A stretch of 64,000 nucleotides of DNA from Escherichia coli (GCF_022846255.1 NZ_AP025682.1); one strand, 5' to 3'. Shown: positions 33,949 to 51,592, numbered from the stretch's first letter. The notes: generated by a model not told the origin, from the sequence alone. Program-made: numbers and translations.

Positions 33949-34818
33949 TCAATCAAGAGGGATGGTCCACATTGACGTATCAAAATCGATCTCTGACCAG
34001 CGAGCAAAACGTAGCTCACTGGAGCGAATAAAGATAAGCAGAGTGAGTTCCGTTGCCCAGCGGGTTAGCGGCCTGCCGGTATAGCCGTCTATTTTCTCAA
34101 GTAACTCAGGGATGCGCTTTAACTCCAGCGCCGGACGATGCTGTCGATTACTGGAAGCAACCGCCCCCGCCATCTCTTGTGCCGGGTTATAATCAATTAA
34201 TCCACTTTGCACTGCATAACGCATGATGGCCGTGGTGCGCTGTTGAAGGCGGGAAGCCACTTCAAAACGTCCAGATTTCTCCACGGCTTTAATGGGAATT
34301 AACAGATCGCGGGTGCCCAGTTCAGCAATATTGCGAGCAACAATTGTTGGGAAGATATTGTCCTCCAGGCTCTTTTTTCCACGATTAGCATGATCTTCCG
34401 ACCATTTTTGGTTGGTTACGAGCCACTCTCTGGCAACCTTCTCGAAAGTAATAATCTCTTTCGCCTGCTCTTCTTTCACAGCACGTTTATGCTCACGAGG
34501 ATCGATACCAGCAGCGACCAGCTTTCTGGCCTCTTCCCTTTTCTTCCGCGCATCCGCCAGCGAAACATCCGGGTAAACGCCGAACGCCATCAAATGTTGT
34601 TTACCACCAAAACGGAAACGAAATCGCCAATACTTTGAACCGCCAGGTTTTACAAGTAAAGACATGCCGTCGCCGTCAACAAGTGAATACTCTTTCTCCT
34701 CAGGTTTTGCAGGACGAACTTTAGTATACGTTAGGGCTATAGTGGTCTTCCTTCCATTGGTATCTCGTGAGTATACAAGCAATATCGAATCGGCAAATAT
34801 ACTTATAAGTATACTCAC
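33949..34818 (-). pseudogene. P4-type tyrosine integrase, C-terminally truncated (intB-like remnant)
   Basis: Residues align with the N-terminal two thirds of the intact integrase at 51593-52840 (GSKYWRFRFRFGGKQ..., RLQQRTTAIMRYAVQSGLIDYNPAQ, LTLLIFIRSSELRFARWSEIDF) but end at ...WTIPLD before the catalytic region. Confidence 0.75.
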
Positions 34819-34903
34819 AAGCCTGTTGATGTGGGTTGAGTCAGGTTGACTTCAGTTGAGGAGAAAAGCTGGAAAAGCCTTGCGTAGCGCGGATTTCAGG
34901 CAT

Positions 34904-34927
34904 AAAAAAAGACCTCAGTTGAGGTCT
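34904..34927 (-). terminator. Intrinsic terminator (ancestral leuX terminator relic)
   Basis: Hairpin agacctca-gt-tgaggtct flanked by A7 on the plus strand, i.e. stem plus T7 on the minus strand; lies just downstream (minus sense) of the partial tRNA copy. Confidence 0.6.
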
Positions 34928-34940
34928 ATTTACATACTTT

Positions 34941-34963
34941 TGGTGCGAAGGCCGGACTCGAAC
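34941..34963 (-). repeat. 23-bp direct repeat of the leuX 3-prime end (att site / island junction)
   Basis: tggtgcgaaggccggactcgaac matches the 3-prime end of the tRNA at 53030-53054 except for one deleted base. Confidence 0.8.
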
Positions 34964-35685
34964 ATATTAATTATCCCGTTGTATTTAAGGCTATTTTATC
35001 AAAATCATTATTGAAGTACCATCATTAATACCATCATAGGTATTGTTCTCCTTTGGCAACAGTTCTTTGATATCGAAATACTTTAACGAACTTTTTATGA
35101 CATCATACTTTGAAGAAAAAATCACATACTGATTTTCATCCAGTACATCTTGCAAGACAAGGTATAAAACAGGGACTACGATTAAAAATAGCAAAGTCAT
35201 TCACTAAATGAATTCAAAATCAGTGATGTTCTTATCTGCAAGAATATAATATATTTAAAAGATTATAAGCAATATATAAATAATAATATAGCTTTAAAAA
35301 AACACACATGAATTAGAAGTTAAATACATTAATTAAAGAAACAAATAAGTAAGAATTTTGTTTTTAAATAACTCATGCAAACGCATCGTTTATTTATATT
35401 AAAGGAAAATGATGAAATCCAATCTAAATTTAAATAGCTACATTACAAACGAATAGAAAAAGAAGCATTTTCCATGTTAAACTACTATCTTGGTGAAGAC
35501 AGGGGGTATAGCCTTCTGCGGTAGCCTACGCTCTTCGAATGCAAAGCAAGAAAATAACCTTTATAATCAAATTGTTATGCAATGCGCTTGTAGAGCAAAG
35601 GTATCTTAAACGAATAGGTTTAACAGTTAAAGCCTCTTTACATAGGCTGAACAAGGGCAGTACTTGAAAATGATAAAATTGGGGT

Positions 35686-37371
35686 ATGTTTAAAATTATG
35701 AATGCCCATAGTTTAGAGATGAGAAAAGAGTTAGGAGCATATTATACTCCAAGTGCTCTTAGTCAAGTGATGTCAGATTGGGCAATTAGAAGACCAACTG
35801 ATAAAATACTTGAGCCAAGTTTTGGAGGCTGTGGCTTTTTAGAAAGCTGTGAAAAGAGCCTCATGGAGATAGGCTGCATAAACCCAATGGAAAATTTATT
35901 TGGGGTTGATGTAGACCAAAAAGCCTTTGATACTCTCAAAAAAAAATATGGGCATTTATTAATAAAAAAACATTTCATTTTAAGTGATTTCATTAACGTA
36001 TTTCCAAAAGATTTTGGCATTGAAGATTTTGAGGTTATCATTGGGAACCCTCCTTATATCTCTATGCATAATATGAGTTATGAACAAAGGAAGTCCTGTG
36101 AAAAAGTTTTTGCTGACTCACCTTTTAAAACAAAAACATTAGGACGCAATGCAAGTCTTTGGGGGTTTTTCTTACTCCATGCATTAAGCTTCATTCGAGA
36201 AAATGGACGAATAGCGTGGGTATTACCGAGTAGTTTTTTAAATGCCTATTATGCGAAAGAGCTTATAAGAATTTACAAAAATCATTTTAACCATCTAAAA
36301 ATAATAAAGATAAATGAAAGACTTTTCAAAAATGAAGGTGCCGATGAAATGTCAGTACTTTTTTTATGCGATGAGTTTCACAGGACACCTATCAATAATG
36401 GATACGTTTCAATTGGATTTGCTGACACATTAAATGAACTAACCAGCATAATGACTGGAACTAAAGAAAACAAATTAAATAGCTCTGAAAATTACAAATA
36501 TAATATATTAGATATTGACACATTAAATGTGATATCGTCTATAACAGAACATAAGTACAGTTTAAAAATACAGGATATTGCTGATATAAAGATTGGGATG
36601 GTAACCGGCATGAACAACTTCTTTATATTGGATCAAAATCAAATTTTAAAACATAATTTAGACAATAAACATTTTAGACCAGTTATTTCACGATTTTCAC
36701 ATTTGAAGGGAATTCACCACACATTAAAAAGACATACGAAGTTAATTGCAGACAATAAAAAAGGATTGCTATTACACGTCAGTCCAGATGATTTATATGA
36801 AAAACATAGTCCGTTGAGAAAATATTTATCACAAGTTGATAGAAAAGAACGAGTCAAAAACCGCACATTCAAAAAACGAAAAAAGTGGTTTCAACCAGAT
36901 GATGGTATTTACCCAGACGCATTTTTTTCATATATGGTTCATGAGTTTCCCAGAATGATATTAAATAAAGGGAAAGTTAACTGCACTAACTCAATACATC
37001 GTATCTTTTTCAAAGATATAGCATCTAATAAATTAAAAAAAGCATGTTGCATATCTCTTTTATCAACATTTTCACAACTTTCTGCCGAACTTGAAGGTCG
37101 GTCATATGGCTCAGGTGTGCTAAAAATAGAGCCTACCGCAGGAAAGAACATATCATTCTTAATTAAAGATGATTTAATACACGAGTTAAGCAACTTAAGT
37201 AAAGAAATAGATCAATTGCTTTTAAATAATGAAACAAGCAATGCCACTGCTTTAGTTGATAAGTTTTTTGTTGATAAGGGACTAATTAGCTTAGATGAAT
37301 TGAAAAGTCTTAAAAAAGGGTTATTCAGATTAAGAAAAGATCGATATAAAGGGGTCAAAAATTATGAGTGA
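35686..37371 (+). CDS. N6-adenine DNA methyltransferase (Eco57I-like gamma-class) with C-terminal extension
   Basis: Motifs GAYYTP, ILEPSFGGCGFL (motif I-like) and IIGNPPYIS (motif IV, approx 36044-36060); 561 aa; first gene of a tightly overlapping four-gene operon. Confidence 0.8.
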   Translation: MFKIMNAHSLEMRKELGAYYTPSALSQVMSDWAIRRPTDKILEPSFGGCGFLESCEKSLMEIGCINPMENLFGVDVDQKAFDTLKKKYGHLLIKKHFILSDFINVFPKDFGIEDFEVIIGNPPYISMHNMSYEQRKSCEKVFADSPFKTKTLGRNASLWGFFLLHALSFIRENGRIAWVLPSSFLNAYYAKELIRIYKNHFNHLKIIKINERLFKNEGADEMSVLFLCDEFHRTPINNGYVSIGFADTLNELTSIMTGTKENKLNSSENYKYNILDIDTLNVISSITEHKYSLKIQDIADIKIGMVTGMNNFFILDQNQILKHNLDNKHFRPVISRFSHLKGIHHTLKRHTKLIADNKKGLLLHVSPDDLYEKHSPLRKYLSQVDRKERVKNRTFKKRKKWFQPDDGIYPDAFFSYMVHEFPRMILNKGKVNCTNSIHRIFFKDIASNKLKKACCISLLSTFSQLSAELEGRSYGSGVLKIEPTAGKNISFLIKDDLIHELSNLSKEIDQLLLNNETSNATALVDKFFVDKGLISLDELKSLKKGLFRLRKDRYKGVKNYE

Positions 37372-39673
37372 AGATATTCTTTTTTTGAAGGATAAGATGA
37401 AAGCCCTCCTGGATAATGAGGCTCTCGATTATGATAAAGTATTAGAAACAGCAGTAAAAATCACCGAAAAAGACAACAACAATATTAGATTTTCTGTAGA
37501 TGCGAATTTAGTTAGAAGATTAGGTGAGCAGTTAGTCGCTAAAAAAACTACTGCTGTCAGTGAATTGGTGAAAAATGCTTATGACGCAGATTCGACATTA
37601 GTAAATGTATATTTCGAATTGAACGAAGCAAATCCTCGAATAGTCATATTCGATGACGGCACAGGTATGTCAAAGGAAGATATTATCAATGGATTCATGC
37701 GAATAAGCACAAGTGAAAAAGAAGATAACTCTGTTTCAGAACGATATCAGAGACTAAGAGCAGGTAGAAAAGGTATTGGGCGTTTTTCTACACAGCGATT
37801 AGGAAATTATTTAAAAATAATTACCAAGCAAGAAAATGAAGAGTTAGGATATTTAATAGAAATTAACTGGCAGCAGTTTTCAAAAAAGAAAAATATATCC
37901 TTCATTGCTAACACTATCTCAAAAATCGATGTGGATTTCATTCATGGAACAAAAATAATAATAGAAGATCTGAATGATAAAGATTGGTCTGATGGGAACA
38001 TAAAAACGGCTTATAAATATATTAAGAGCATTATAAATATTGCCCCAAGCGAGACAGATCCAGGTTTCCAAGTAAAGTTCTATTATAAAAATGCCAATGG
38101 CTATGAATTAGTTGCAGATGAGAAAACTGAAATTTTTTCTGATAGTGATGCTCATATTACAGCAACACTTGAAAATGGAAATGCTGTAGTGAGAGTTAGC
38201 AGTGAAACCCTTGGCATAAAAAATGAAAGCATAGATGTATGGTATGATGAAAAAAATAACATACGAAAATTCTCACATATAAACTCTCCAGTAAAGCTTG
38301 ATGCATACTATTTCTCATTAGCAACAGTTAACTCCAGAAAACAAGCGGCATATTTACGTGAAAATGGCGGAATAAAAATCTATCGAAATGGATTCAAGGT
38401 TTCTCCTTATGGAGAGCAGTATGATGACTGGACGGCTCTTGATGACTCGGTTCGAAGGAGAAAGATATTACCCCCTCATGGTAATCAAAACTTCTTTGGA
38501 CACGTCAAAGTTGAAGACCTAAATGGAATAGACTTTGAAGAAACGTCCTCAAGGGAAGGTCTGATTCATACCGATGCCTTTCAAGAACTTCGCCTCTTTG
38601 TATATAAAGCACTGACGGCTGCGGTAATAAGAATTAGTGAAGCCAGAAATATAAAAATAAATCCAAATGACCGTAGCTATGTTAAAGAAACTAAACCAAC
38701 AATATCAGTCAAAGATAAATTAAATATTGTATCTGAAACGATAAGCTCGGTTAGTAAATTGGTAGATGCAGCAACATCTGTTGATGACGTTTCAAGTGAT
38801 GGTGTCATTAATAACATTGAAGATAAAAGTATAAGAAACAAAATTATTGAAGATCTCCATGAAGCCGCAGATGAGCTAAAACAAGCGAGTGTGATATCTC
38901 AATCTTTAATCGATGAAATTGAGCTTCTTAGAGTGCTTGGCGCTATGGGCCTTGCTATTGGTGAGTTTACACACGAAATAAATTTATCAATAACAAGTTT
39001 GAGTATTAACGTTCAAAACCTTAAACAGTCTAAATTATTAGAGGAAGATAGAGACTCTGCTCTAAATAGCCTTGAAAATAATATTGCAACATTAAAATCA
39101 TTTACTAAATTTTTTGACAGTACTATACGTGAGAATGTAAACAGAAATAAGAAAGTTATTGAGATAAGAGACTCTATTGAGCCATTTTATGAATCGATGA
39201 AACCAATAATAGAACGCAAAGGAATTCAGTTTGCAATACATTATGAAGGTTATGAACTTTTTACGAAGCCGATTCATGTTTCAGAGCTATATTCTGTATT
39301 TATAAATCTCTTTACGAATGCATATAAAGCAATACTTCGTTCTGGAACAAATCCACGAAAAATGTCTTTAACTGCGAAAAAAGATAGTGAAGATATAATT
39401 ATCCGATTCGAAGATAGCGGTGATGGAATTGAACCTGCAAATAGAGAAAGAGTTTTTGAGCCTTTCTATACAACAAGTACACCATCAGGACCTTTTGAAA
39501 GTGATGATTTATCATTAAAAGGAATGGGATTGGGGTTATCAATCGTACGTGATCTCGTTGAATCCATGTCTGCAGAAATATCTATAGTTGATGCATCCGA
39601 TGGTTTTACAACGTGCTTTGAGTTGAGAATTCCAAAAGCTGATGATAAGGAAATACCAGATGACATCTATTAA
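37364..39673 (+). CDS. Dual Bergerat-fold ATPase: N-terminal MutL/HSP90/MORC-like GHKL module plus C-terminal histidine-kinase core (HisKA-like H-box + HATPase_c)
   Basis: N-terminal motifs ELVKNAYDAD (approx 37562-37591), DDGTGMS, GRKGIGRF; C-terminal H-box GEFTHEINLSITSL (approx 38961-39000), N-box LFTNAYKAIL, G1 EDSGDGIE, F-box FEPFYTT, G2 GMGLGLSIV; no obvious TM segment; start overlaps MTase stop by 8 nt. Confidence 0.7.
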   Translation: MSEDILFLKDKMKALLDNEALDYDKVLETAVKITEKDNNNIRFSVDANLVRRLGEQLVAKKTTAVSELVKNAYDADSTLVNVYFELNEANPRIVIFDDGTGMSKEDIINGFMRISTSEKEDNSVSERYQRLRAGRKGIGRFSTQRLGNYLKIITKQENEELGYLIEINWQQFSKKKNISFIANTISKIDVDFIHGTKIIIEDLNDKDWSDGNIKTAYKYIKSIINIAPSETDPGFQVKFYYKNANGYELVADEKTEIFSDSDAHITATLENGNAVVRVSSETLGIKNESIDVWYDEKNNIRKFSHINSPVKLDAYYFSLATVNSRKQAAYLRENGGIKIYRNGFKVSPYGEQYDDWTALDDSVRRRKILPPHGNQNFFGHVKVEDLNGIDFEETSSREGLIHTDAFQELRLFVYKALTAAVIRISEARNIKINPNDRSYVKETKPTISVKDKLNIVSETISSVSKLVDAATSVDDVSSDGVINNIEDKSIRNKIIEDLHEAADELKQASVISQSLIDEIELLRVLGAMGLAIGEFTHEINLSITSLSINVQNLKQSKLLEEDRDSALNSLENNIATLKSFTKFFDSTIRENVNRNKKVIEIRDSIEPFYESMKPIIERKGIQFAIHYEGYELFTKPIHVSELYSVFINLFTNAYKAILRSGTNPRKMSLTAKKDSEDIIIRFEDSGDGIEPANRERVFEPFYTTSTPSGPFESDDLSLKGMGLGLSIVRDLVESMSAEISIVDASDGFTTCFELRIPKADDKEIPDDIY

Positions 39674-40763
39674 CCTACTTTATATCGATGATGATCAGCC
39701 TCAGCAAGTAAAGGGTTTAATTGAAGCAATAATCAGTAAAGCGAGTTTTGATTTAAATATAACTCATAAACCGCCGACGAAAATGAGTGAAATAGCCATA
39801 GAGTTGAGACAAGGTTATGATGGTATCATCATAGATCAAAAACTTGACAGCTTTGTTGAGGGAGTAGAACCAGTTGATTACTTTGGTGCCGCGTTAGCAC
39901 AAAATTTGCGAACACTCATGGCGGGTAAGTCAGATAATATATCTTATAAGCCAATAATTTTACTCTCTCTCGAAAGCTTATTAATTGAATATTATAATCC
40001 CGATTCAAGCTCGCATGATCTATTTGATTTAGTTTTGAGTAAAAGCATATTAGAACAACCAGAATTGTTAGAAAAAAAAGTTCACTTAATAAAATCTATT
40101 GTGAATGCTTACAAACGTGCACATTCGGAAGACTCGTTATATCAATTGCTTTCTCTGAGCAGTAATTATTCATTGCTTGATAAAAGATTTGAAATATATA
40201 TTTCTCAGTATGATAAAGATATACATAAGCTCGTCACATCCATACACTCCACACTTCTGAGAAGTAGTGGCATGTTAGTTTCTGAGATAACTTTGGCAAC
40301 CAGACTGGGTATTAATATTGAAGAATCGCCAGACTGGCACCAAGTAATTGGGCACCTTGAGGAATATAAATACAATGGCATATTCTCTGATTATTATAAA
40401 AGATGGTGGTGGGCAGATGTAGAGTTGTGGATAAATAAAAAGCTTAACTGCCCAATAATTAAAGGATTAACCTCAGAAAAAAGAGTGGAGATCATCAAAG
40501 AAAAACTTGGCTTAGAACGATTGATGCCAATTCATAGCGTACATCCAGGCCAAAGCACCAAGTTTTGGGTTAATTGTATCATCAGTAAAGAACCTCTTGA
40601 TACAATAGATGCTCTTCGTGCATCATCTATGGAATTAAAACCTTGGGAAGATGATAAATACCTTTCAATTAAAACAGTGTTAGAGAGACGGGCCGAAAAA
40701 TATAAAGTACATCCAGAAGATAGAACAAAATTGGATCGAATTCGGGCGAGGTTTAAATTATAA
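39642..40763 (+). CDS. Receiver (REC)-like domain protein with unassigned ~250-aa C-terminal domain
   Basis: CheY-like pattern: LLYIDDD (beta1, acidic pocket), GIIIDQKL (candidate phospho-acceptor Asp), KPIILLSLES (beta4 Ser); divergent REC, so call is tentative; overlaps kinase gene stop. Confidence 0.5.
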   Translation: MIRKYQMTSINLLYIDDDQPQQVKGLIEAIISKASFDLNITHKPPTKMSEIAIELRQGYDGIIIDQKLDSFVEGVEPVDYFGAALAQNLRTLMAGKSDNISYKPIILLSLESLLIEYYNPDSSSHDLFDLVLSKSILEQPELLEKKVHLIKSIVNAYKRAHSEDSLYQLLSLSSNYSLLDKRFEIYISQYDKDIHKLVTSIHSTLLRSSGMLVSEITLATRLGINIEESPDWHQVIGHLEEYKYNGIFSDYYKRWWWADVELWINKKLNCPIIKGLTSEKRVEIIKEKLGLERLMPIHSVHPGQSTKFWVNCIISKEPLDTIDALRASSMELKPWEDDKYLSIKTVLERRAEKYKVHPEDRTKLDRIRARFKL

Positions 40764-41506
40764 TGAACAATAATACAACTTTGTTAGACGATATGTGTAG
40801 GCTCAGGGACTTTTTATATGATAGCCGCATATGCCCAGATATTAATCCTCTCAACCGTTTAATCAGTAAACTTAATGCAAATCTCCACTCCGAAACAGGG
40901 GAGGACTTTGAATACTCTTTAGACGATTTAGTATTTTATCTTAGCGAAAAATCTGGAACAATTTGTCCGACCCAAATTACACCCAAAGAAAACCCTATTG
41001 AAATACATTTGGAACTTATATTAAAAAGTGAAGGCCCTTATGAATTTTCGAAGATTAAAGAACTTTCAGGGCAATTACGACTTAAAGCTGAGTGGATCAA
41101 TGACACAACAGAAAAAATTGAGATAAAAACATCACATAGTGCTTGGCATTTTGATTATCATGTTCCTCAAATGGGGGATGGCGTAAATTCATTTACTCAT
41201 CCTCAATTCCATTTACAAAATGGAGGAAACAGGCTGACTGATAATTTAAATGACTATGGAGAGTTAATGATTCTTGATGCTCCAAGACTACCTTTACCTC
41301 CTATGGATGTGATATTAGCCATTGACTTTATTATTTCAAATTTCTTTGGTTCTATTTGGCAACAAGCATTATGTGATTCAGAATACATTGATGTAGTTAA
41401 AAGAGCACAAAAAGCATGGTGGAAACCTTATTATGAAGGTATAAGTCAACACTGGTCTGGCAATGGCTCAGGAATATCCAATATCCTAATTCCAAACCTT
41501 CTGTAG
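40763..41506 (+). CDS. Hypothetical protein (247 aa), fourth gene of the operon; possible effector
   Basis: ATG overlaps preceding stop (ATAATG); His-rich segment HFDYHVPQMGDGVNSFTHPQFH; no confident motif. Confidence 0.6.
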   Translation: MNNNTTLLDDMCRLRDFLYDSRICPDINPLNRLISKLNANLHSETGEDFEYSLDDLVFYLSEKSGTICPTQITPKENPIEIHLELILKSEGPYEFSKIKELSGQLRLKAEWINDTTEKIEIKTSHSAWHFDYHVPQMGDGVNSFTHPQFHLQNGGNRLTDNLNDYGELMILDAPRLPLPPMDVILAIDFIISNFFGSIWQQALCDSEYIDVVKRAQKAWWKPYYEGISQHWSGNGSGISNILIPNLL

Positions 41507-41771
41507 TGTATCAAAATCTGTTAACCATCTCCAATTACGAATAGCAATATTTATATAAAACTAATTTTTTATTTTAAACAACTTCAGCAAGGGCTAACTC
41601 TCAGCATCTCCTTCGGTGATACTTTGAGTTGCTCCTTGTTTTTTCGCCCTTTGGTTGAAAAAATTAAAAGCAAAACCAACCCTATACATTGACTTTTTCA
41701 GCATCTATCATATAAATAAAATAAGCATAATGGACATGCTTATTTTACTTTACTATATGAAAGGAGTTCAT

Positions 41772-42185
41772 ATGAATGATAGGAATCATACTTTTAATAA
41801 GTTCGAGCCATTCAGAAGTTGTAGCTATGAAAATTTTACTTCTGCTAAAACACTCTCCCAGCAGACACGTTCTCATTGTATTAGTATCAGATTAAATGAT
41901 GCCGAGTTATCTTACGTTGATGGCTTACGAGAAGATCTCAACCGTGCTGTTTGGATACGTATGTCAGCATTGAATCGTCTCCCTTCCAAAATTCCTGAAA
42001 TAAATCTAATTGTCTGGAAAGACCTTGCCAAAGCATCTCAGAATCTGAATAACCTCGTTCAGCATCTCAACACTAAATCACACGATAGTCCTTTTACTAT
42101 CACCGAAATTTATACGGTACAAAAAAGAATAAAAGCACTAAGAGATGCCCTTCTGTCAGCAAATCGATCTGTCAGTGATAAATAA
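41772..42185 (+). CDS. MobC-like mobilization accessory protein
   Basis: Strong RBS aaggag 5 nt upstream of ATG 41772; small basic protein with ribbon-helix-helix-like segment (CISIRLNDAELSYVDGLRED); stop overlaps relaxase start (TAATG). Confidence 0.55.
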   Translation: MNDRNHTFNKFEPFRSCSYENFTSAKTLSQQTRSHCISIRLNDAELSYVDGLREDLNRAVWIRMSALNRLPSKIPEINLIVWKDLAKASQNLNNLVQHLNTKSHDSPFTITEIYTVQKRIKALRDALLSANRSVSDK

Positions 42186-43372
42186 TGAAAGGGATGCAAA
42201 AAATCCGCAGAGGAAAGAGTTTTGCTGGTGTCGTCCTCTATGCGTTAAAGCCCGGTTCTCATCATAAAAAAGACCCTATCGTGATCGGTGGAAATATAAC
42301 GATAGTTGGCAATGCCGCTAAAGATCTGATCGCTGAATTTGATAGCACCAAACAGCTTCGCCCTGACGTGCAAAAGGCTGTTTGGCACAACTCGCTTCGC
42401 TTACCTAAAGGTGAATCACTAACGGCTAAACAGTGGTCTGAAATAGCAGATGATTACATGTCCCGCATGGGCTTCTCTGAAACGCATCTCAGATGCTACG
42501 TCCTACATGACGACGAAGATGGCCAGCACATCCATATCATCGCCAGCAGAGTGTCTCTTGATGCCGGAAAGCTCTACCTCGGCAGGAATGAGAACCTGGC
42601 AAGCACGAGAATAATTCAGCAACTTGAAAGAAATTACAATCTGACAAGAACCAAAGGGCCAGGAGCTAAAGCATCTACATCTTCTCTTTCCTCTAAACCG
42701 AAACATAAAAAATCACGTAATGAGGCTATGTTAGAGGAGAGAACTGGTGAACCATGCCCTAAATCCATCATCCAAAGGGCTATAGATTCGATAACATTAA
42801 ATCCTATAGCAATTGATGACTTCGTTGAAAAGCTGAATAGCATAGGGATTACGGCGAAAAGCAATATTTCTTCAACTGGCAAGATGAATGGATTTTCCTT
42901 TGAATGCAAAGGTGTTGTGTTCAAAGCTTCCCAGCTTGGCAAGAAGTATAGTTGGAAGAACCTGGAATCAATGATTTCAATGAATTACAACTCACACATT
43001 GGTGATGAAAAACCTGTCATCCCTGAACCTGCTGCCCATCGCAGCAACGAAGCTGTCATACCTATAGTGGAAGACTATTCTGATGAAAAGATTTACCCTG
43101 AGATAAGGGTACCCTTACCAAGACCTGACACAGCGCCCACAAAACCTACAAGCATGACAATGCGTTGGATCGCAACCATACCTTATCTTGTGAGTGTTAT
43201 TAGCGCACTTAAAACGATGCGTATCCCCTTTCTAAAGGCGTTCAATGGCCCAAGGAAGTTCTTTTCCGTGTCCATGATTCACCTGTCCTCTGTAAGCCTG
43301 AAACAGACCAAAACGAATAATTTCAAACCAAAAAGTTCCCACCAAAAGGCCCACAAGCCCCTTCTCCCCTGA
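42185..43372 (+). CDS. Mobilization relaxase (MobA/VirD2-like)
   Basis: Relaxase histidine triad region HDDEDGQHIHIIASRV (HxH motif), N-terminal nickase-like domain; coupled to the MobC-like gene. Confidence 0.65.
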   Translation: MKGMQKIRRGKSFAGVVLYALKPGSHHKKDPIVIGGNITIVGNAAKDLIAEFDSTKQLRPDVQKAVWHNSLRLPKGESLTAKQWSEIADDYMSRMGFSETHLRCYVLHDDEDGQHIHIIASRVSLDAGKLYLGRNENLASTRIIQQLERNYNLTRTKGPGAKASTSSLSSKPKHKKSRNEAMLEERTGEPCPKSIIQRAIDSITLNPIAIDDFVEKLNSIGITAKSNISSTGKMNGFSFECKGVVFKASQLGKKYSWKNLESMISMNYNSHIGDEKPVIPEPAAHRSNEAVIPIVEDYSDEKIYPEIRVPLPRPDTAPTKPTSMTMRWIATIPYLVSVISALKTMRIPFLKAFNGPRKFFSVSMIHLSSVSLKQTKTNNFKPKSSHQKAHKPLLP

Positions 43373-43580
43373 TTTCTCCACAGATAAACGATCGTTATAA
43401 TCGATCGATTTATTTATATTGATAGTCAATAACAATCAATAGGTAAATAATCGATCGGTACAAGCAATTTGCTATGTCCTTAGAAGTGTTCAAAATGTAC
43501 TTTCATGCATAAATCGGATAATAGGTTGATTTTACTAGCCTATTTTTCTATCCACGTATCGAACATGCAGGGACTGAAGT

Positions 43581-44171
43581 ATGAGATATCTCATGATGAA
43601 GCGTGTAATGTTAGCAATCCTTCTTCCGTTTATTGTTGGATGTTTATTTGGTGCTAAAGCATTATCAGAGTATTGGGTTGTGTGGTTTTTTGTTTGTGCA
43701 ATGTTGATGATCACAGCCTGGGGCGTGTGGTTAAAAAATAAAAACAGAGGTTCCAGCTTCAGCTACCTGAATGATAATGAAGATGGTGTATTTATCTACA
43801 AATTTCATAATCAAGAGATGCGTTTAGATAAAGCCAAAAAAGAGCTTTATTTAAAAGATGGGTTAAACGAAAAAACCTACACTTTTTCCGATGTTGAAAG
43901 CTGGGAATATAAAATTAGCACAGGTGGTCAGATCCTCACTTCAGGTCTTAACCCTACAACTAACTTGATTAACAATAAGATTCTTGGTGAAAACATTAAT
44001 GACACCGGCTTCTTTATCAAAGTTAAAGACATCAGAAACCCTGAGTGGCATATTCGATTCTTCCCTCAAGAAGGATCTTATAAAGATCAGAGGGGATTAA
44101 TTAGCTTAAAAAAACAGATGATGCAGTGGATGACCGTTTTTGACTTAATCGTAAATGCTGATACAAAGTAA
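43581..44171 (+). CDS. Hypothetical inner-membrane protein (two predicted TM helices)
   Basis: N-terminal hydrophobic segments (VMLAILLPFIVGCLFGA; WVVWFFVCAMLMITAWGVWL) then soluble domain; function unknown. Confidence 0.6.
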   Translation: MRYLMMKRVMLAILLPFIVGCLFGAKALSEYWVVWFFVCAMLMITAWGVWLKNKNRGSSFSYLNDNEDGVFIYKFHNQEMRLDKAKKELYLKDGLNEKTYTFSDVESWEYKISTGGQILTSGLNPTTNLINNKILGENINDTGFFIKVKDIRNPEWHIRFFPQEGSYKDQRGLISLKKQMMQWMTVFDLIVNADTK

Positions 44172-44182
44172 GGAAAACAAGA

Positions 44183-44473
44183 ATGAAAAAAACCATGCTA
44201 CTATTATTAGCTTCAATGTCGCTGACAGGTTGCAACAGTGAACCATCCGATGCAGATATTTCAAAAGCCATGCAGAGCTTTATGAGTGAGATGCATGGTA
44301 CCCTGAACTCGTCTAAAAAACTTGCGTGTAAAGATATAGAGAGTGATGGCAGTTATCTCTGCTCTGTAGAGTTCGATGCTAAACTTCCAATCGTGGGCCA
44401 TAGAGAATCGACGCTAGAATTAAAGTTTATTAAATCCGATGACTCCTGGAAAGCAATGGCTCCATCTAAATAA
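44183..44473 (+). CDS. Small lipoprotein (96 aa)
   Basis: Signal peptide with lipobox (LLLASMSLTGC); 11 nt downstream of the membrane protein gene. Confidence 0.6.
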   Translation: MKKTMLLLLASMSLTGCNSEPSDADISKAMQSFMSEMHGTLNSSKKLACKDIESDGSYLCSVEFDAKLPIVGHRESTLELKFIKSDDSWKAMAPSK

Positions 44474-44566
44474 ACTTAATTATATTTGACAATAGAAAAA
44501 TAGTACGTCATAGATAGTAAATTGATAACAACCAGTGGGTTGAGCCACTGGCTGTTATCCCAATGG

Positions 44567-44644
44567 TTAATACACGGATGTACTAACCACCATTAAAAGG
44601 ATAAACAACATCACCTTTAATGCACGGGAGCGTTTTTTAGACAT
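44567..44644 (-). CDS. Unannotated 25-aa hydrophobic peptide (MSKKRSRALKVMLFILLMVVSTSVY); type I toxin-like small ORF
   Basis: Minus-strand ATG with GGAG 6 nt upstream; basic N-terminus then a single hydrophobic helix; a 14-bp imperfect hairpin (approx 44524-44558) lies just downstream. Below the ORF-track length cutoff. Confidence 0.3.
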   Translation of the reverse strand: MSKKRSRALKVMLFILLMVVSTSVY

Positions 44645-44730
44645 ACGCCACTCCTTCTTTTTCATCATCAACCTTATTGTTGGTGATGTTGCCTCTTTGG
44701 GCTGATGCAGATTATCATTTTAGAATACTA

Positions 44731-44756
44731 AAAGCATCCTTTCGGATGCTTTTTTT
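44731..44756. terminator. Bidirectional intrinsic terminator
   Basis: aaagcatcc-tttc-ggatgcttt hairpin flanked by an A-run upstream and T-run downstream, between convergent/adjacent transcription units. Confidence 0.6.
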
Positions 44757-44850
44757 CGCCTTGAAAATATTAGCAAGATAATAATCCATAAAGGATAATA
44801 TAAAAACCAAAATAATATGCTACGGTAGTTGTTATAAAAATCACATAAAA

Positions 44851-45273
44851 CTACAGTCCATATTTTTTCCTTTTATCCTTCATCAATAATTCTCTTTTTA
44901 GGGTAGAAGCCTCATGTTTCCTTCTCTCATTAATATAGACTTTTTCGGTTCTACTACCATTGCTCACAATGAAATTGATAAGTGAAGAGCATACGTTTTT
45001 CATACGCTCTTTATCGAGCATGTCATTTTCAATATTATTGATATTGCAGTAATAAGAAAGTAGTAAAAAATTCAACACTACTTCCCTGTTTGAGAACGTT
45101 AGTTTTTCTATTTCAGGCTGGTATTTAATGTAGAACCCGGCACAAAACAGGTATGATTGTTCGATAATTTGTTGCTCTGAGAAGTCTGATTCAGAGAGTT
45201 TATCAACGAATCGATCAAGTAGAAGAAGATACCTTTCCATCAAATGAATATTTATTTTTTCCATAACATGCAT
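44851..45273 (-). CDS. Hypothetical protein (140 aa)
   Basis: ORF in AT-rich island cargo downstream of the recombinase operon; no motif recognised. Confidence 0.5.
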   Translation of the reverse strand: MHVMEKINIHLMERYLLLLDRFVDKLSESDFSEQQIIEQSYLFCAGFYIKYQPEIEKLTFSNREVVLNFLLLSYYCNINNIENDMLDKERMKNVCSSLINFIVSNGSRTEKVYINERRKHEASTLKRELLMKDKRKKYGL

Positions 45274-45357
45274 CCTTGCAATTTATTTTGCCATCCTGAC
45301 AATTAAATAAATACCATAATTATTAATCACGTCAATAGTTAAAACCTATCTATTTTA

Positions 45358-45756
45358 TTAAAGGTATTTTGCAGGTAACGGATTATTAAGTTCTTCAATC
45401 GTTATTTGTTTAAGGTGAGCATTATAAAGCCATACTTTGAACTGCTCTAAATAGCGTTCATTTAATGCCTTCAAAGCCTCATTTTCTGCTTCAAGTCTTC
45501 TAATTCGTTGAGAAGCCACTTTTAAATTAGCAGGTTTTACAGTATGTATTGCACCAGATTTGATAGTGGCCTTTTTCACACTGAAGCTTTCTGCAATCCT
45601 TACATGACTACTTAAGGATTGTCTTGATGGTCTTTTCCCAATAATCCTTACTAACCTGTCGCACAAAGCATCCCAGGTTAGTTTTTCATCTATAGACCAT
45701 GTGTTAATAACATCTACAATCTTCTTCTCATGATAACCATTTATATGCTTAGCCAT
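45358..45756 (-). CDS. Small basic coiled-coil protein (132 aa), accessory gene of the recombinase operon
   Basis: Starts 1 nt after the stop of the 543-aa recombinase; heptad segment RIRRLEAENEALKALNERYLEQ. Confidence 0.55.
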   Translation of the reverse strand: MAKHINGYHEKKIVDVINTWSIDEKLTWDALCDRLVRIIGKRPSRQSLSSHVRIAESFSVKKATIKSGAIHTVKPANLKVASQRIRRLEAENEALKALNERYLEQFKVWLYNAHLKQITIEELNNPLPAKYL

Positions 45757-47388
45757 TTATTCTCCTTTTTTTATTCTCTTATGGAATTCATACCATCTAT
45801 CAGCATTTATGTTCCCATCATTTTTATCATACAGTGTTCTTTTTGAAATTTTATCGTGAATTTTTGAAATCGTTTCGTTATCTAAACCAGAATTCTCAAT
45901 CGGATAATGTTCACACGGCTTAAACGCATATGAGTGCTTGCAGTAGCCATGTTTTGATACCAGTACTGCACCACTACTAAGTGAATCAAACTCATTAAGA
46001 ACCACCACTGGAATATCCTTTATTCTGTGCTCATTAACACACACTGATAACTTTTGTTCTCTTATTGCTTTAGACATTTGAAGATGCGATCTGTGGTCAT
46101 AAGAAAAATTTTGAGAAATAAGCTTACGTCCAGACCAGCGAGCAATACTAAACTCATCCATACCATTTATTTGAGCAAAAGTGTTGAGAAGATGCCTCAG
46201 TTGATGTGTTCTTAGCAAATATGGGCTACCATCATCATTTATATAACCATGTCTTTTAAATACATTTAAATATCCTTTTATATAATCAGAATCAACGATA
46301 TCAGTTTTAAAAAAATTCGTTGTAGGTCTGAATAACTTATCTAACATTTCCTTTTTATTTTGATTTAACTGTCCTTCAGTTAACAAGCAAAGCGCATTAG
46401 AATATTTGATTTTCTTCTCTCTATCATACCAAAAGAGATCTGGAGGTATATTTTCTTTAAGGGTTCCCATCGTTGAATTAGAGTAATTCTTTTGAATTTC
46501 AGCAGCCAATAATCTCGCTTGACTTGATAATTCTTTTAATCTGCTAATAGCCTTTTTTGCTACAGGTATCATTAAAGTTGGAATCCATTTTATATTGCCT
46601 TCATACCCTTTTGCTGAAAAAAATCTTAAACCGTATCTTTGAATGCCCTTTCCATCACATTCTGTAATTTCACAATCCACTGGCAAAGCTAAAATTTCCG
46701 ATATCCTACTCGGTGCACACATAAGTAAAGCAAGCACAGATGTAGTAAATATATCTCTTGACGATAATTGTTCATCCCGCTTTGAAAAAATCTCAGCAAT
46801 CGCAATAACTGATTTGATATCAGGCAATCTAGAATGGCCTTCCAGTGAAGAATCATAACCAGTCCAAGACTGAGTAATCCTATACCTAATTGGACTTATC
46901 CAAAATAAATAAGATGAGTTAGTCATCCTATTATCATTTAAAAATGAACTCAATTTCTCAAGTTCTTTCCCAATAGCAAATGCATGTGCTTTAGAATACT
47001 TTTCAGAGGCTATCCTTATGCATTCATCAAAGATTGAATTGTTGCAATAGTTTACATTAGCTTCCATATTGATTTTAAGTAAAACGAATTCGACAATCTT
47101 CAACATTGATAATGTTGAGTGTTTCGTCTTAGATTTATTGAATGAATGCACATGCAACATATATGCTTTAGCAAAATTAATAAAGCTATCATCTAAGCAT
47201 TCTTTGCTGTTTAGGTTGTTTTTTGAGTTAAACTTAGTAAACCTATATAAACCTTTCCATTTATTGCTTTCCCAAGAAGTTGTTAAATTATTATTAGAAA
47301 TAGTACTCTTACAAAACTCGATGAACTTAATAACATTATCGTGAGGGTTGTTTTTATTGCTTGGTTCAAAAATAAATATATTGTTCAT
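45757..47388 (-). CDS. Tyrosine recombinase (543 aa), third of three tandem recombinases
   Basis: Catalytic-region motifs PSRISEIL (box I Arg), HQLRHLLNT (HxxR), downstream Tyr region; 4-nt overlap with the upstream recombinase gene. Confidence 0.65.
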   Translation of the reverse strand: MNNIFIFEPSNKNNPHDNVIKFIEFCKSTISNNNLTTSWESNKWKGLYRFTKFNSKNNLNSKECLDDSFINFAKAYMLHVHSFNKSKTKHSTLSMLKIVEFVLLKINMEANVNYCNNSIFDECIRIASEKYSKAHAFAIGKELEKLSSFLNDNRMTNSSYLFWISPIRYRITQSWTGYDSSLEGHSRLPDIKSVIAIAEIFSKRDEQLSSRDIFTTSVLALLMCAPSRISEILALPVDCEITECDGKGIQRYGLRFFSAKGYEGNIKWIPTLMIPVAKKAISRLKELSSQARLLAAEIQKNYSNSTMGTLKENIPPDLFWYDREKKIKYSNALCLLTEGQLNQNKKEMLDKLFRPTTNFFKTDIVDSDYIKGYLNVFKRHGYINDDGSPYLLRTHQLRHLLNTFAQINGMDEFSIARWSGRKLISQNFSYDHRSHLQMSKAIREQKLSVCVNEHRIKDIPVVVLNEFDSLSSGAVLVSKHGYCKHSYAFKPCEHYPIENSGLDNETISKIHDKISKRTLYDKNDGNINADRWYEFHKRIKKGE

Positions 47389-48710
47389 AATGCTCTCCAG
47401 GGATTGAATTTTTTACACGTTAAGCATTTCAAATCCTCTTTCGTATCTTCTAATAAGAAAAATGCATCTGAAACATACTTGATAAAAAAGTTCTTGTTTT
47501 CTTCAATCTCTATGCCCATAAGTATATTAGATAAGGGGTTAAAAAACGCACTTAGTCTCTTATCGATGTCATAAACGTTGTCAGGATTGTTTTTTATATA
47601 TATCATAGAAGAGTTTACTGATTTATGATCTAAGGCTTTAGCAATCACCTCAATTGAGGCTCCTTCGTTAGCCAGTCGACTTCCTAACGTATATCTGAAT
47701 CTTCTAGCATTAAGTTCTATATAGCTGTTAGTCCTTTCTGACCTAACATCGAATTTTGACGGAAAGTGTTTTAATAGTTTTGACATAACTGAATTTTTCA
47801 TATGGAAAAAATCTGTTGTTAAATCAGATAAAAAATCCTCAATCCTTTTTGTTTCCGTAATCTTATCTAAATTCATGAAGATTGGTAATTCGCCTCTATA
47901 GTTATTAATCCCAACACTGAATTTATCTTCAACAAACGCCTGATTTTGATTAATTAGCATTGATAAACTGTCATATAAGAACGGTTCTATCATTACCATA
48001 TTAAATTCTTTTCTGAAACATTTTCTTTGTTTTACTTTTGGTACATTCAAAAAGCACCCTCTCTCATTTTTAATGAGATCTTTAGCTTTTAGAGATATCA
48101 ATTGTAATGGCCTTCTTCCTGTTATTGCCAGCAAAAGGATATAACAATACAAAAAGCATTGAATTTTCTTCTCATGATAAAATTTTCCAACGGCGTTAAT
48201 AATGTTATTGAATTCCGTTTCAGTTAAAGGTCCTTTATTTGGATCTCGTCTTTTAACTGCATCTCCTGTTTGGTTTGGAATGATTTTTATTTTCTCCAGC
48301 ATTCTAATGGCAGTCGCATCTACCCCAGGGTAATTGAGATTTTTCCATTTAGTGATGAAAGCCTTAATTGAGTTTAGTTTGTAGTTTCTTTCTGAACCTA
48401 AATAAACATTCAATTGATATATTGCTTTGTCATCAATAGTATCGATGGTCATTGCACCAAACCACTTATAAAATAGATTGTTAATATTTTGTATATAAAA
48501 AGAACTATATTCAGACGCATAGTAAGCTAATGTTTTTAAGTAGCTAAGTTTCATTTTTGTAGGCATTCTATCTACAACTTTATGAGGGTATACGCAGTTT
48601 TCTTTATCAAGTTGCCATTTCTTATCTGACAGTTTGAAACTATATCTATTCATCTTAGCAAAAAAAATTTGCTCACTTTCAATACATTTTATTTCCACAT
48701 TAAACCCCAC
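47385..48710 (-). CDS. Tyrosine recombinase (441 aa), second of three
   Basis: Motifs ITGRRPLQLISLK (box I Arg), RFRYTLGSRL and LDHKSVNSSMIY (box II); overlaps neighbours at both ends. Confidence 0.65.
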   Translation of the reverse strand: MGFNVEIKCIESEQIFFAKMNRYSFKLSDKKWQLDKENCVYPHKVVDRMPTKMKLSYLKTLAYYASEYSSFYIQNINNLFYKWFGAMTIDTIDDKAIYQLNVYLGSERNYKLNSIKAFITKWKNLNYPGVDATAIRMLEKIKIIPNQTGDAVKRRDPNKGPLTETEFNNIINAVGKFYHEKKIQCFLYCYILLLAITGRRPLQLISLKAKDLIKNERGCFLNVPKVKQRKCFRKEFNMVMIEPFLYDSLSMLINQNQAFVEDKFSVGINNYRGELPIFMNLDKITETKRIEDFLSDLTTDFFHMKNSVMSKLLKHFPSKFDVRSERTNSYIELNARRFRYTLGSRLANEGASIEVIAKALDHKSVNSSMIYIKNNPDNVYDIDKRLSAFFNPLSNILMGIEIEENKNFFIKYVSDAFFLLEDTKEDLKCLTCKKFNPWRAL

Positions 48711-49905: not shown

Positions 49906-50029
49906 TTTGACCTCATTCTTTACAAATTAATATCACTCTCACTTATTAAATATATTCCAATTCAAAATAATTCAAATTTTTTACAATGGCTTTAGTTTAT
50001 TTGGTATATATATTAATGGCTTGAAAAAA

Positions 50030-50049
50030 TTTATTTGACGTCAAATAAA
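50030..50049. repeat. 20-bp perfect palindrome upstream of the recombinase trio
   Basis: tttatttgacgtcaaataaa centred on GACGTC, ~125 bp upstream of the first recombinase start codon. Confidence 0.5.
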
Positions 50050-50287
50050 CAGGTACGGCTAGTATTGAGTATCCATACCCGATATTAAGAAAACCATCTT
50101 CAACCCTTATAGCAAAAGCTCTGCTAGAAAAAAGGTAAAGAATTACGTCAAATATACTTATTTTTCAGATACAAACTTTACAAAGCCTCTTTTTTTTCAA
50201 AGCCACTAAGTAAACTCAAAAGATCTCTAAATTCCTTTTTCTTAATACATTATCAAAAGTTAAAAAATCCATGAAGCAGCATTCCTG

Positions 50288-50491: not shown

Positions 50492-50611
50492 ATGTATGTC
50501 CTCTGTTGTGTCTACAGGGCTACAGTACAAATGAATTTCGAATGGATGAAGCGAGATTACGAACATCAGAGCCATCCCTGGCTCGAAACTATGAGTCTCT
50601 GGAGATTCATA

Positions 50612-51523: not shown

Positions 51524-51592
51524 ATAAATCGCAAATAAAAAAATGGCGTCTCAATTGGTTATTGAATACGCCATTTTACTCATAAAAATCAG

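What the first reader, a model, noticed from the sequence alone, without database searches (positions are those of the whole stretch)
39642..41506. Receiver-domain protein with unassigned output domain and a His-rich fourth gene: unidentified effector of the operon
If the operon is a defence system it needs an effector, yet no nuclease, NADase, pore or protease motif is recognisable by eye in the ~250-aa C-terminal domain of gene 3 or in gene 4 (247 aa, segment HFDYHVPQMGDGVNSFTHPQFH). Either may be a novel effector fold regulated by phosphorylation.
Basis: inference. Interest (0 to 1): 0.6.

Follow-up and report, generated by a model that had tools for sequence, protein, structure and literature searches.

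The report
Kinase-switched restriction module, DUF2290-like effector
Genes 3 and 4 are the conserved output pair of a widespread restriction-type anti-phage module switched by a histidine kinase, and gene 4 is a distant relative of the defence-linked DUF2290 proteins, whose activity is unknown.

Summary
Gene 3 (39660-40763) has a divergent but catalytically complete receiver domain, followed by about 235 aa that match no Pfam, PADLOC, NCBIfam or PDB entry. Gene 4 (40763-41506) also matches nothing. Its His-rich segment contains the residues that are invariant or near-invariant across its family (D131, H146, P147 and H150 invariant; H129 at least 90%).

The operon is a relative of Ambrosia, a defence system validated in 2025. 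Ambrosia has an N6 methylase, a paraMORC-type histidine kinase, a receiver protein and an HNH nuclease. Gene 2 is 29% identical to its kinase AbrB (E 1e-36). Here the receiver protein carries an extra domain, and the HNH nuclease is replaced by gene 4.

Gene 4 is a remote homologue of DUF2290 (hhalign probability 88%, E 3e-6). DUF2290 is the unexplained partner in the Helicase+DUF2290 anti-T7 system.

The order kinase, gene 3, gene 4 is kept in 72 of 73 loci from many phyla. Among 61 loci with enough flank, the partner is an N6 methylase in 33 and the SspBCD phosphorothioation genes in 26.

Most likely, phosphorylation of Asp59 in gene 3 licenses gene 4 as the effector. This step is inferred, not shown. 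I rate it a new variant of a known kind, of moderate to high interest.

The parts
35686..37371 (+). Gene 1: Eco57I-type N6-adenine DNA methyltransferase (561 aa), the modification partner
   Evidence: PADLOC MTase_II at 2e-89. The homologue in L002 carries Pfam N6_Mtase, Eco57I and M_Eco57I_C.
37364..39673 (+). Gene 2: soluble paraMORC-type histidine kinase (769 aa). It has an N-terminal GHKL ATPase (aa 63-187), a DHp region with the phospho-acceptor H537-E538 (38972-38977), and a C-terminal kinase ATPase domain (aa 641-759).
   Evidence: Pfam HATPase_c_3 at 3e-22, HEF_HK at 7e-3, HATPase_c at 1e-17. 29% identical to Ambrosia AbrB over about 400 aa, E 1e-36. N71, D97/G99/G101, H537/E538, N648/N652 and D684/G686/G688 are invariant in 72 species.
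39660..40049 (+). Gene 3, receiver domain (aa 1-130). Acidic pair D10/D11, phospho-acceptor D59 (39834-39836), S103, K128.
   Evidence: AF2 model plus Foldseek matches to receiver domains. The five residues are conserved. hhalign aligns D59 with the stretch holding AbrC D60, which is needed for Ambrosia defence (bioRxiv 10.1101/2025.09.30.679545).
40050..40763 (+). Gene 3, family-specific C-terminal domain (aa ~131-367). Mostly helical, with a probable helix-turn-helix around 'TLATRLGI' (aa ~209-232) and a small conserved beta unit (S299, W303, C306, D314, D317, W329, Y334).
   Evidence: Conservation; secondary structure. No Pfam, PDB or PADLOC match. Every homologue found has the same ~367-aa architecture.
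40763..41506 (+). Gene 4: DUF2290-like protein (247 aa), the candidate effector
41144..41227 (+). Gene 4 signature WHxDxH...HPxxHxQxGG (aa 128-155), the conserved Asp/His cluster. R175, P180, D182, D188 and N193 (41285-41341) complete the conserved set.
   Evidence: Invariant or at least 90% conserved in 111 sequences. D, HP and H are also conserved in true DUF2290. Coordinates were checked.

Best explanation
Genes 3 and 4 are the output half of a three-protein restriction-type module: kinase, receiver protein and DUF2290-like protein. The module works alongside a DNA-marking enzyme. Here that enzyme is an N6-adenine methylase; in other lineages it is the SspBCD phosphorothioation system.

Proposed sequence of events:
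1. Gene 2 is a soluble kinase with a MORC-like ATPase head. It senses invading or unmarked DNA, or another infection cue, and autophosphorylates on His537.
2. The phosphate passes to Asp59 of gene 3.
3. Phosphorylated gene 3 uses its family-specific C-terminal domain, which probably holds a helix-turn-helix, to engage DNA and gene 4.
4. Gene 4 is thereby licensed as the effector. It is most plausibly a metal-dependent nuclease or nickase built around the conserved Asp131/His146/His150/Arg175 cluster.

Shown: the domain identities, the intact catalytic residues of kinase and receiver, homology to Ambrosia AbrB, the strict three-gene linkage, and the alternative modification partners. Inferred: the signal sensed, a direct gene 3-gene 4 partnership, and any enzymatic activity of gene 4.
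For: 1. Gene 2 is homologous to AbrB. The motifs of both of its ATPase domains and its H-box are invariant in 72 species.
2. Gene 3 keeps all five receiver catalytic residues. Its D59 aligns with the stretch holding AbrC D60, and the D60A mutation abolishes Ambrosia defence (bioRxiv 10.1101/2025.09.30.679545).
3. The order gene 2, gene 3, gene 4 is found in 72 of 73 loci with enough flank, across several bacterial phyla (Bacteroidota, Proteobacteria and others). Gene boundaries mostly overlap or lie a few bases apart.
4. The partner is an N6 methylase in 33 loci and SspBCD in 26 of 61. The partner type tracks three deep clades of the kinase tree. This is the pattern expected of the restriction half of a modification-restriction pair.
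5. In Ambrosia, and in the RM-linked kinase/receiver systems of PMC8011034, the gene next to the receiver protein is a nuclease such as HNH, HNH_2 or Vsr. Gene 4 holds that position.
6. The extra C-terminal domain of gene 3 was seen only in the ~367-aa architecture in every homologue found, and a gene 4 homologue follows it in every locus examined. AbrC, which pairs with HNH, is 209 aa and too short to contain it. This co-variation argues for a direct functional link.
7. Gene 4 and DUF2290 share a conserved Asp/His-Pro/His core, as expected of an active or ligand-binding site. DUF2290 is itself part of a validated defence system (PMC9122126).
Against: 2. Some helicase partners of DUF2290 carry their own NERD nuclease-related domain. 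DUF2290-type proteins might therefore be regulators or sensors, not effectors.
3. The Ambrosia authors favour transcriptional control by AbrC, because reporter genes in the operon are induced on infection. The gene 3 C-terminal domain does look helix-turn-helix-like.
4. In Ambrosia, methylation by AbrA did not protect phage, so the self/non-self logic of this class is unclear.
5. I could not search the fold of the gene 3 C-terminal domain on its own.
6. Nothing has been tested experimentally for this variant.
Confidence: 0.45

Rival explanations
1. Transcription-only switch, as in the published Ambrosia model. Phosphorylated gene 3 is a DNA-binding activator that turns on the operon during infection. 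Gene 4 is then simply an induced effector, with no direct control by gene 3.
For: Ambrosia reporters replacing abrA or abrD are induced on infection, and AbrC is reported to carry a winged helix. Gene 3 has the conserved 'LAxRLGI' helix-turn-helix-like motif.
Against: A plain transcription factor would not need a ~235-aa domain that appears only together with gene 4 and is missing from AbrC, whose partner is HNH. No known output-domain family (OmpR, NarL, LytTR and others) matches by Pfam, and none is among the 50 listed Foldseek matches. The operon would have to be expressed already in order to sense. No promoter-like or repeated operator site stood out upstream, where the promoter scan was no richer than shuffled sequence.
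Confidence: 0.3
2. Gene 4 is an accessory protein, not the effector. It could be a phage sensor, a phosphatase or connector that tunes the phosphorelay, or an anti-toxin-like brake. The real output would then be the gene 3 C-terminal domain or DNA clamping by the MORC-like head of gene 2.
For: Some helicase partners of DUF2290 contain a NERD nuclease-related domain, so DUF2290 need not be the nuclease. A conserved Asp/His cluster would also suit a phospho-Asp or phospho-His phosphatase. Eukaryotic MORCs silence DNA without cutting it (general knowledge).
Against: The gene 3 C-terminal domain has only two invariant acidic residues and no nuclease-like motif. In sister systems, nucleases hold the place of gene 4. 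Gene 4 is as strictly conserved as the kinase.
Confidence: 0.17
3. This is not a defence system. It would be a cytoplasmic two-component system that regulates DNA-modification epigenetics or mobile-element maintenance.
For: The 2021 description of the wider class found related genes induced in planta and left their function open (PMC8011034).
Against: A relative has been validated as anti-phage. The system sits in the P2 hotspot and in an island cargo slot that holds a methylase-plus-HNH cassette in another strain. Many Ssp-type loci also carry a PbeABCD-like cluster next to the triplet.
Confidence: 0.05

Closest known systems
Ambrosia defence system (AbrR/AbrA/AbrB/AbrC/AbrD) of Pseudomonas aeruginosa, bioRxiv 10.1101/2025.09.30.679545
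   Same: Both have an N6 methylase, a soluble kinase with HATPase_c_3 plus HATPase_c, and a receiver protein in one operon. Gene 2 is 29% identical to AbrB (E 1e-36). The receiver phospho-Asp region aligns, D59 with D60. The AbrB N40 equivalent (N71) is invariant.
   Different: AbrD is a canonical HNH protein (Pfam PF01844). Gene 4 shows no similarity to it. AbrC is 209 aa, too short to contain the ~235-aa C-terminal domain of gene 3. No XRE regulator (AbrR) lies upstream in the window. AbrA is 448 aa and gene 1 is a 561-aa Eco57I-type enzyme. Ambrosia has no reported Ssp-linked form.
Response_reg_2 (PF19192) / HEF_HK (PF19191) two-component-like systems linked to R-M and paraMORC ATPases (Bellieny-Rabelo et al. 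2021, PMC8011034)
   Same: Both have a soluble kinase with a HATPase_c_3 head next to a divergent receiver protein, embedded in R-M contexts. Gene 2 gives a weak HEF_HK hit containing the His-Glu core.
   Different: Gene 3 does not match PF19192 at all. That class is mostly linked to C5 methylases with HNH_2 or Vsr neighbours, not to N6 methylases or SspBCD with a DUF2290-like gene.
DUF2290 (PF10053) of the Helicase+DUF2290 anti-T7 system (Rousset et al. 2022, PMC9122126; DefenseFinder Rst_HelicaseDUF2290)
   Same: Both are small stand-alone proteins of about 210-250 aa in defence operons. They share the core ...D...HPxxH.x.G...R...P plus an amphipathic helix. hhalign gives probability 88%, E 3e-6. 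UniProt names two gene 4 family members DUF2290. Biochemical function is unknown in both cases.
   Different: None of 111 family members reaches the Pfam DUF2290 model, and none of ten reaches any PADLOC model. The partner here is a kinase plus receiver, not a UvrD/NERD helicase. The first motif is WHxD here and R[YF]D in DUF2290.
Phosphorothioate-dependent restriction partners of Ssp/Dnd (SspE, SspFGH, PbeABCD, DndFGH)
   Same: In 26 of 61 loci the triplet lies directly beside SspB-SspC-SspD, the place usually taken by the restriction partner.
   Different: No PADLOC hit to SspE, SspF, SspG, SspH or Pbe proteins. The same triplet also pairs with N6 methylases. A separate PbeABCD-like cluster often lies on the other side.
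BbrUII/HgiDII family type II restriction enzymes (NCBIfam NF050001)
   Same: The GHKL ATPase head of gene 2 (aa 42-206) matches their N-terminal ATPase region, E 2e-27.
   Different: The match covers only the first 170 of 659 profile positions, and the score of 96 is far below the cut-off of 550. The rest of gene 2 is a histidine kinase, not a nuclease.

Membership tests
Ambrosia | AbrB-type kinase: HATPase_c_3 head plus HisKA-like H-box plus HATPase_c | tested here: met
   Pfam. BLASTP against AbrB gives 29% identity, E 1e-36. Motifs are invariant.
Ambrosia | AbrC-type receiver protein with an essential phospho-Asp (D60) | tested here: inconclusive
   hhalign aligns 45 columns around D59/D60 (E 4e-4, probability 36%). 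The receiver fold and the five catalytic residues are met. The architecture differs: 367 aa against 209 aa.
Ambrosia | AbrD HNH endonuclease | tested here: not met
   Neither BLASTP nor hhalign finds similarity between gene 4 and AbrD. Gene 4 has no Pfam HNH hit.
Ambrosia | AbrR XRE/HipB-like regulator in the cluster | tested here: not met
   The ORFs of 25-69 aa listed in 34800-35686 were judged by eye and none looks HTH-like; no profile search was run on them. Some relatives do have one, for example the HTH_3 gene in L003.
Ambrosia | N6-adenine methyltransferase in the operon | tested here: met
   PADLOC MTase_II at 2e-89. Direct homology to AbrA was not tested because only a partial AbrA sequence was seen.
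Response_reg_2 / HEF_HK systems (PMC8011034) | Receiver protein matches Pfam PF19192 | tested here: not met
   No Pfam hit for gene 3 even at E<=10. None of 20 homologues hits PF19192.
Response_reg_2 / HEF_HK systems (PMC8011034) | Kinase carries HEF_HK (PF19191) and HATPase_c_3 | tested here: inconclusive
   HATPase_c_3 at 3e-22 is clear. HEF_HK reaches only E 7e-3.
DUF2290 (PF10053) | Match to the Pfam model | tested here: not met
   0 of 111 family members match, and gene 4 itself does not match.
DUF2290 (PF10053) | Remote homology to bona fide DUF2290 proteins | tested here: inconclusive
   hhalign of the gene 4 family against 11 annotated DUF2290 proteins gives probability 88%, E 3e-6 over 48 columns. 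The D/HP/H motif is shared. Two family members are named DUF2290 in UniProt. This supports superfamily-level relatedness, not family membership.
DUF2290 (PF10053) | Adjacent UvrD/NERD-type helicase | tested here: not met
   The neighbours are a kinase and a receiver protein in 72 of 73 loci.
Classical DNA-binding response regulators (OmpR, NarL, LytTR, NtrC types) | Receiver domain with the D-D-D-T/S-K residue set | tested here: met
Classical DNA-binding response regulators (OmpR, NarL, LytTR, NtrC types) | Recognised output domain such as Trans_reg_C, GerE, LytTR or Sigma54_activat | tested here: not met
   No Pfam hit. Matches that extend past the receiver (e.g. RcsB, 193-236 columns) have rmsd 11-16 A.
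Ssp restriction partners (SspE, SspFGH) and PbeABCD | HMM match to the PADLOC models | tested here: not met
   No such hits for genes 2-4 or for their L004 homologues.

The most novel reading that the evidence does not exclude
The DUF2290-like protein would be a previously unrecognised effector fold, a nuclease or other hydrolase. Its activity would be licensed after translation by Asp-phosphorylation of a dedicated receiver-adaptor protein. That would make this the first restriction module gated by a His-Asp phosphorelay. Its Ssp-linked clade would be a new restriction partner for SspBCD phosphorothioation, beside SspE and SspFGH, and it would also explain what DUF2290 does in the Helicase+DUF2290 system.
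Probability: 0.3. Interest if true: 0.8.

Novelty: new variant of a known kind. Interest (0 to 1): 0.6.

Why it matters
Two-component signalling inside a restriction-type defence system has only just been shown experimentally, in a 2025 preprint on Ambrosia. The variant here appears widespread:
- 931 clusters at 50% identity match the gene 4 profile.
- At least 123 stretches encoding a relative were found in a scan of one genome for each of about 100,000 species.

Its two output proteins have no assigned function. Working them out would do three things:
- Give a function to the DUF2290 superfamily, which is already part of a validated but unexplained defence system.
- Identify a candidate missing restriction partner for SspBCD loci that lack SspE or SspFGH. 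Such a gap has been noted for the Acinetobacter baumannii global clone 2 Ssp locus, which lies near a histidine-kinase two-component system (PMC12421847).
- Show whether immunity can be gated by a phosphorelay acting directly on an effector, and not only through transcription.

Tried and rejected
- HMM libraries. Pfam, PADLOC, NCBIfam and PHROGs gave nothing for gene 3 or gene 4.
- PDB sequence-profile searches. Searches with gene 3, its C-terminal domain, gene 4 and DUF2290 returned only spurious low-complexity or weak hits, such as tau, PTPRS and FASTKD4 at E 0.15.
- Gene 4 as a diverged HNH related to AbrD. Rejected.
- Gene 4 as a PD-(D/E)xK nuclease. Rejected by eye, because no conserved Lys and no D...ExK pattern is present.
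- Gene 4 as an Fe/2-oxoglutarate dioxygenase (HxD...H...R pattern). Rejected, because the first His is Arg in DUF2290 and the model is not a double-stranded beta-helix.
- Gene 3 'PWQExK' as a nuclease motif. Rejected, because the Lys is not conserved.
- Word-index homologue searches. These badly under-sampled both families, finding 20 and 6 clusters. The full HMM scan corrected this for gene 4.
- Helicase partner of DUF2290 sharing the gene 3 C-terminal domain. Tested and not found.
- RNA and regulatory signals. No Rfam family lies in the operon. The promoter scan was no richer than shuffled sequence.


Full report
**What is in the window**

Four co-directional genes lie tightly packed on the + strand in a low-GC stretch (31-35% against about 50% in the flanks).
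- Gene 1 (35686-37371) is an Eco57I-type N6-adenine methyltransferase (PADLOC MTase_II, 2e-89).
- Gene 2 (37364-39673, 769 aa) has an N-terminal GHKL ATPase of the MORC/HATPase_c_3 type (aa 63-187), a weak HEF_HK hit over its H-box (aa 528-585), and a C-terminal kinase ATPase domain (aa 641-759).
- Gene 3 is annotated in RefSeq from 39660 (367 aa). It overlaps the end of gene 2 by 14 nt.
- Gene 4 (40763-41506, 247 aa) starts on the stop codon of gene 3.

**Gene 3**

No Pfam, PADLOC, NCBIfam or PHROG model matches it.

An AlphaFold2 model built on 20 homologues is confident (pLDDT 87, pTM 0.86). Foldseek against the PDB matches only the N-terminal ~150 residues. The matches are receiver or flavodoxin-like domains such as RcsB, RcpA, ComE, CheB and PleD.

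The five residues that define an active receiver are all conserved. D11 and D59 are invariant, and D10, S103 and K128 are at least 90% conserved in 21 sequences. So this is a divergent but catalytically complete receiver domain. One homologue touches Pfam iREC and another touches Response_reg.

The remaining ~235 residues are mostly helical. They contain a conserved 'E..LA.RLGI....S..W' stretch that looks like a helix-turn-helix, followed by a small beta unit carrying S299, W303, C306, D314, D317, W329 and Y334. This region has no sequence match in the PDB, and none of the 50 listed Foldseek matches was an output-domain family. It was seen only in this ~367-aa architecture. The helix-turn-helix reading is my inference from motif and secondary structure. 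I could not run a fold search on the isolated domain.

**Gene 4**

It has no hit in any HMM library.

The word-index search found only six clusters. A full HMM scan of 1.84 billion representatives found 931 at E<=1e-3 and 315 at E<=1e-30. Most of the 150 listed are stand-alone proteins of about 230-270 aa.

In a 111-sequence alignment, the invariant residues are D131, H146, P147, H150, P174, R175 and P180. H129, G154, G155, G166, D182, D188 and N193 are at least 90% conserved.

Foldseek against AFDB50 returns 33 matches at E<=0.001. All are named 'uncharacterized' except two that UniProt calls 'DUF2290 domain-containing'. None of the 111 members reaches the current Pfam DUF2290 model.

I took true DUF2290 sequences from the supplement of Rousset et al. 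2022 and from annotated plasmid genes, and aligned 11 of them. They share R-[YF]-D ... H-P-x-x-H-[LIF]-x-x-G. Profile-profile comparison with the gene 4 family gives probability 88%, E 3e-6 over the HPxxH...R...P...helix region.

Gene 4 is therefore a remote, superfamily-level relative of DUF2290. DUF2290 is the unexplained partner in the validated Helicase+DUF2290 anti-T7 system (PMC9122126).

**What the operon is**

A full-text search found the Ambrosia system of P. aeruginosa (bioRxiv 10.1101/2025.09.30.679545). Its parts are:
- AbrR, an XRE regulator
- AbrA, an N6 methylase
- AbrB, a kinase with HATPase_c_3 plus HATPase_c
- AbrC, a 209-aa receiver protein
- AbrD, a 213-aa HNH protein

Mutating conserved residues in each of the five proteins abolishes defence, including AbrB N40A and AbrC D60A.

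Gene 2 is 29% identical to the available 399 residues of AbrB (E 1e-36). The AbrB N40 equivalent, N71, is invariant. The gene 3 receiver aligns with AbrC around the phospho-Asp, D59 with D60.

Gene 4 is unrelated to AbrD. AbrC, at 209 aa, is too short to contain the gene 3 C-terminal domain. No XRE gene lies upstream in the window.

The wider class, a paraMORC-type kinase plus divergent receiver protein in R-M neighbourhoods, was described computationally in 2021 (PMC8011034). Gene 3 does not match that paper's Response_reg_2 family.

**Comparative genomics**

Look-ups around distant homologues, together with a scan of one genome per species using the gene 4 profile (123 relatives found, 80 loci kept), gave 86 non-redundant loci. 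I called ORFs in these loci and labelled them with local HMMs.
- Of 73 loci with at least 3.6 kb upstream, 73 have the kinase and 72 also have gene 3, always in the order kinase, gene 3, gene 4.
- Gene junctions mostly overlap or lie within a few bases.
- The taxa include Bacteroidota; Alpha-, Beta- and Gammaproteobacteria plus Geobacter, Desulfovibrio, Campylobacter and Sulfurimonas; Chloroflexota; Verrucomicrobiota; Planctomycetota; Nitrospirota; and Leptospiraceae.
- Of 61 loci with room on both sides, 33 carry an N6 methylase, either upstream as here or downstream. Another 26 carry SspB-SspC-SspD, and 2 carry neither. The Ssp identification rests on strong PADLOC hits: SspB 2e-104, SspC E=0, SspD 2e-91.
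- On a neighbour-joining tree of the kinase, partner type splits into deep, largely coherent groups (Ssp and methylase-downstream each form one clade; methylase-upstream falls in more than one) and needs only two switches.

A module that stays constant while its neighbour alternates between two chemically different DNA-marking systems behaves like the restriction half of a modification-restriction pair.

Further defence context:
- In Serratia fonticola the same four genes sit in the P2 prophage hotspot between the replication gene and the portal gene. A Rahnella bruchi locus shows a similar gene-size pattern on its downstream flank, which I did not annotate.
- In the window they are cargo of an island at tRNA-Leu. 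Its backbone occurs in 15 complete E. coli genomes, but this cargo is in only one of 5,426.
- In strain A42 the same slot holds two methylases and an HNH gene.

**Mechanism**

Shown:
- Both ATPase domains and the H-box (H537-E538) of gene 2 are intact and invariant.
- The gene 3 receiver is catalytically complete.
- The three genes are inseparable.

Inferred:
1. The kinase senses foreign or unmarked DNA through its MORC-like head and phosphorylates D59 of gene 3.
2. Gene 3 then acts through its private C-terminal domain.
3. Gene 4 is the effector.

I favour direct licensing of gene 4 by phospho-gene 3 (confidence about 0.45). The gene 3 C-terminal domain co-occurs only with gene 4 and is dropped where the partner is HNH. 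Nucleases occupy the position of gene 4 in sister systems. Gene 4 and DUF2290 also share an Asp/His/His/Arg cluster suited to metal-dependent hydrolysis.

The main rival (about 0.3) is the transcription-only model proposed for Ambrosia. A second rival (about 0.17) is that DUF2290-type proteins are sensors or regulators, since some DUF2290-associated helicases carry their own NERD domain. No enzymatic activity can be assigned from sequence or fold.

**Novelty and verdict**

The kind of system, a two-component-controlled and R-M-like defence, is known from one preprint and one comparative paper. This particular architecture is not in PADLOC 2.0 or NCBIfam, and none of my full-text searches found it described. 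Its distinguishing features are a receiver protein with a private ~235-aa domain, a DUF2290-like protein in place of HNH, and a large SspBCD-coupled clade.

One paper remarks that the A. baumannii GC2 Ssp locus lacks a nuclease and lies in a region that also contains a histidine-kinase two-component system (PMC12421847). I did not verify that this is the same triplet.

I rate it a new variant of a known kind, with interest about 0.6. The idea of a 'novel effector fold regulated by phosphorylation' remains open and testable. Gene 4 is the stronger candidate.

Noticed in passing
window ~34900-53114: A low-GC integrative mobilizable island lies at tRNA-Leu(CAA) (53030-53114, minus strand). It carries a MobC-like gene and a relaxase (41655-43372) and three tyrosine recombinases. 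The backbone is at least 80% covered in 15 of 5,426 complete E. coli genomes, but the four-gene cargo is in only one (TUM11353). In E. coli A42 the same slot holds an N6 methylase, a Dam-like methylase and an HNH gene, so it is a variable defence-cargo slot.
   Followed up: partly
L004 9824-14925; a similar gene-size pattern in L029, L030, L064, L039, L051, L057, L073: In L004 a PbeABCD-like four-gene cluster (PADLOC PbeA 4e-291, PbeC 7e-30) lies directly next to the kinase-gene 3-gene 4 triplet. Several other Ssp-type loci show a neighbouring cluster with the same gene sizes, not checked by HMM. SspBCD would then be flanked by two different candidate phosphorothioate-dependent restriction modules.
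   Followed up: partly
L002 4000-9882 (Serratia fonticola); L010 (Rahnella bruchi): In L002 the same four-gene system is inserted in the P2-like prophage defence hotspot between the gpA-type replication gene and the portal/terminase genes. L010 shows a similar gene-size pattern on its downstream flank, which was not annotated.
   Followed up: partly
L010-L089, kinase tree: The family splits into deep, largely coherent groups that match operon architecture: methylase upstream (in more than one group), methylase downstream, and SspBCD. Only two partner switches are needed on a neighbour-joining tree. The window belongs to a gammaproteobacterial methylase-upstream group.
   Followed up: yes
window 33949-34818 (minus strand): A truncated P4-type integrase-like ORF (289 aa, GTG start) lies at the left edge of the island. 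It suggests an older, decayed integration event next to the current element.
   Followed up: no
L001 (E. coli TUM11353) 5631-14116: In the only E. coli genome with the same operon, the left flank carries further defence genes: an AbiEii/DUF6088 pair, a complete type I R-M system (HsdM/S/R), an HNH gene and a fragment of a phosphorothioate-DNA-binding restriction endonuclease. This is a defence island context.
   Followed up: no
literature: PMC12421847: The Acinetobacter baumannii global clone 2 Ssp locus is reported to lack a cognate nuclease and to lie in a region that also contains a histidine-kinase two-component system. This may be the Ssp-type form of the triplet described here. AFDB family members include an Acinetobacter suaedae protein.
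   Followed up: no
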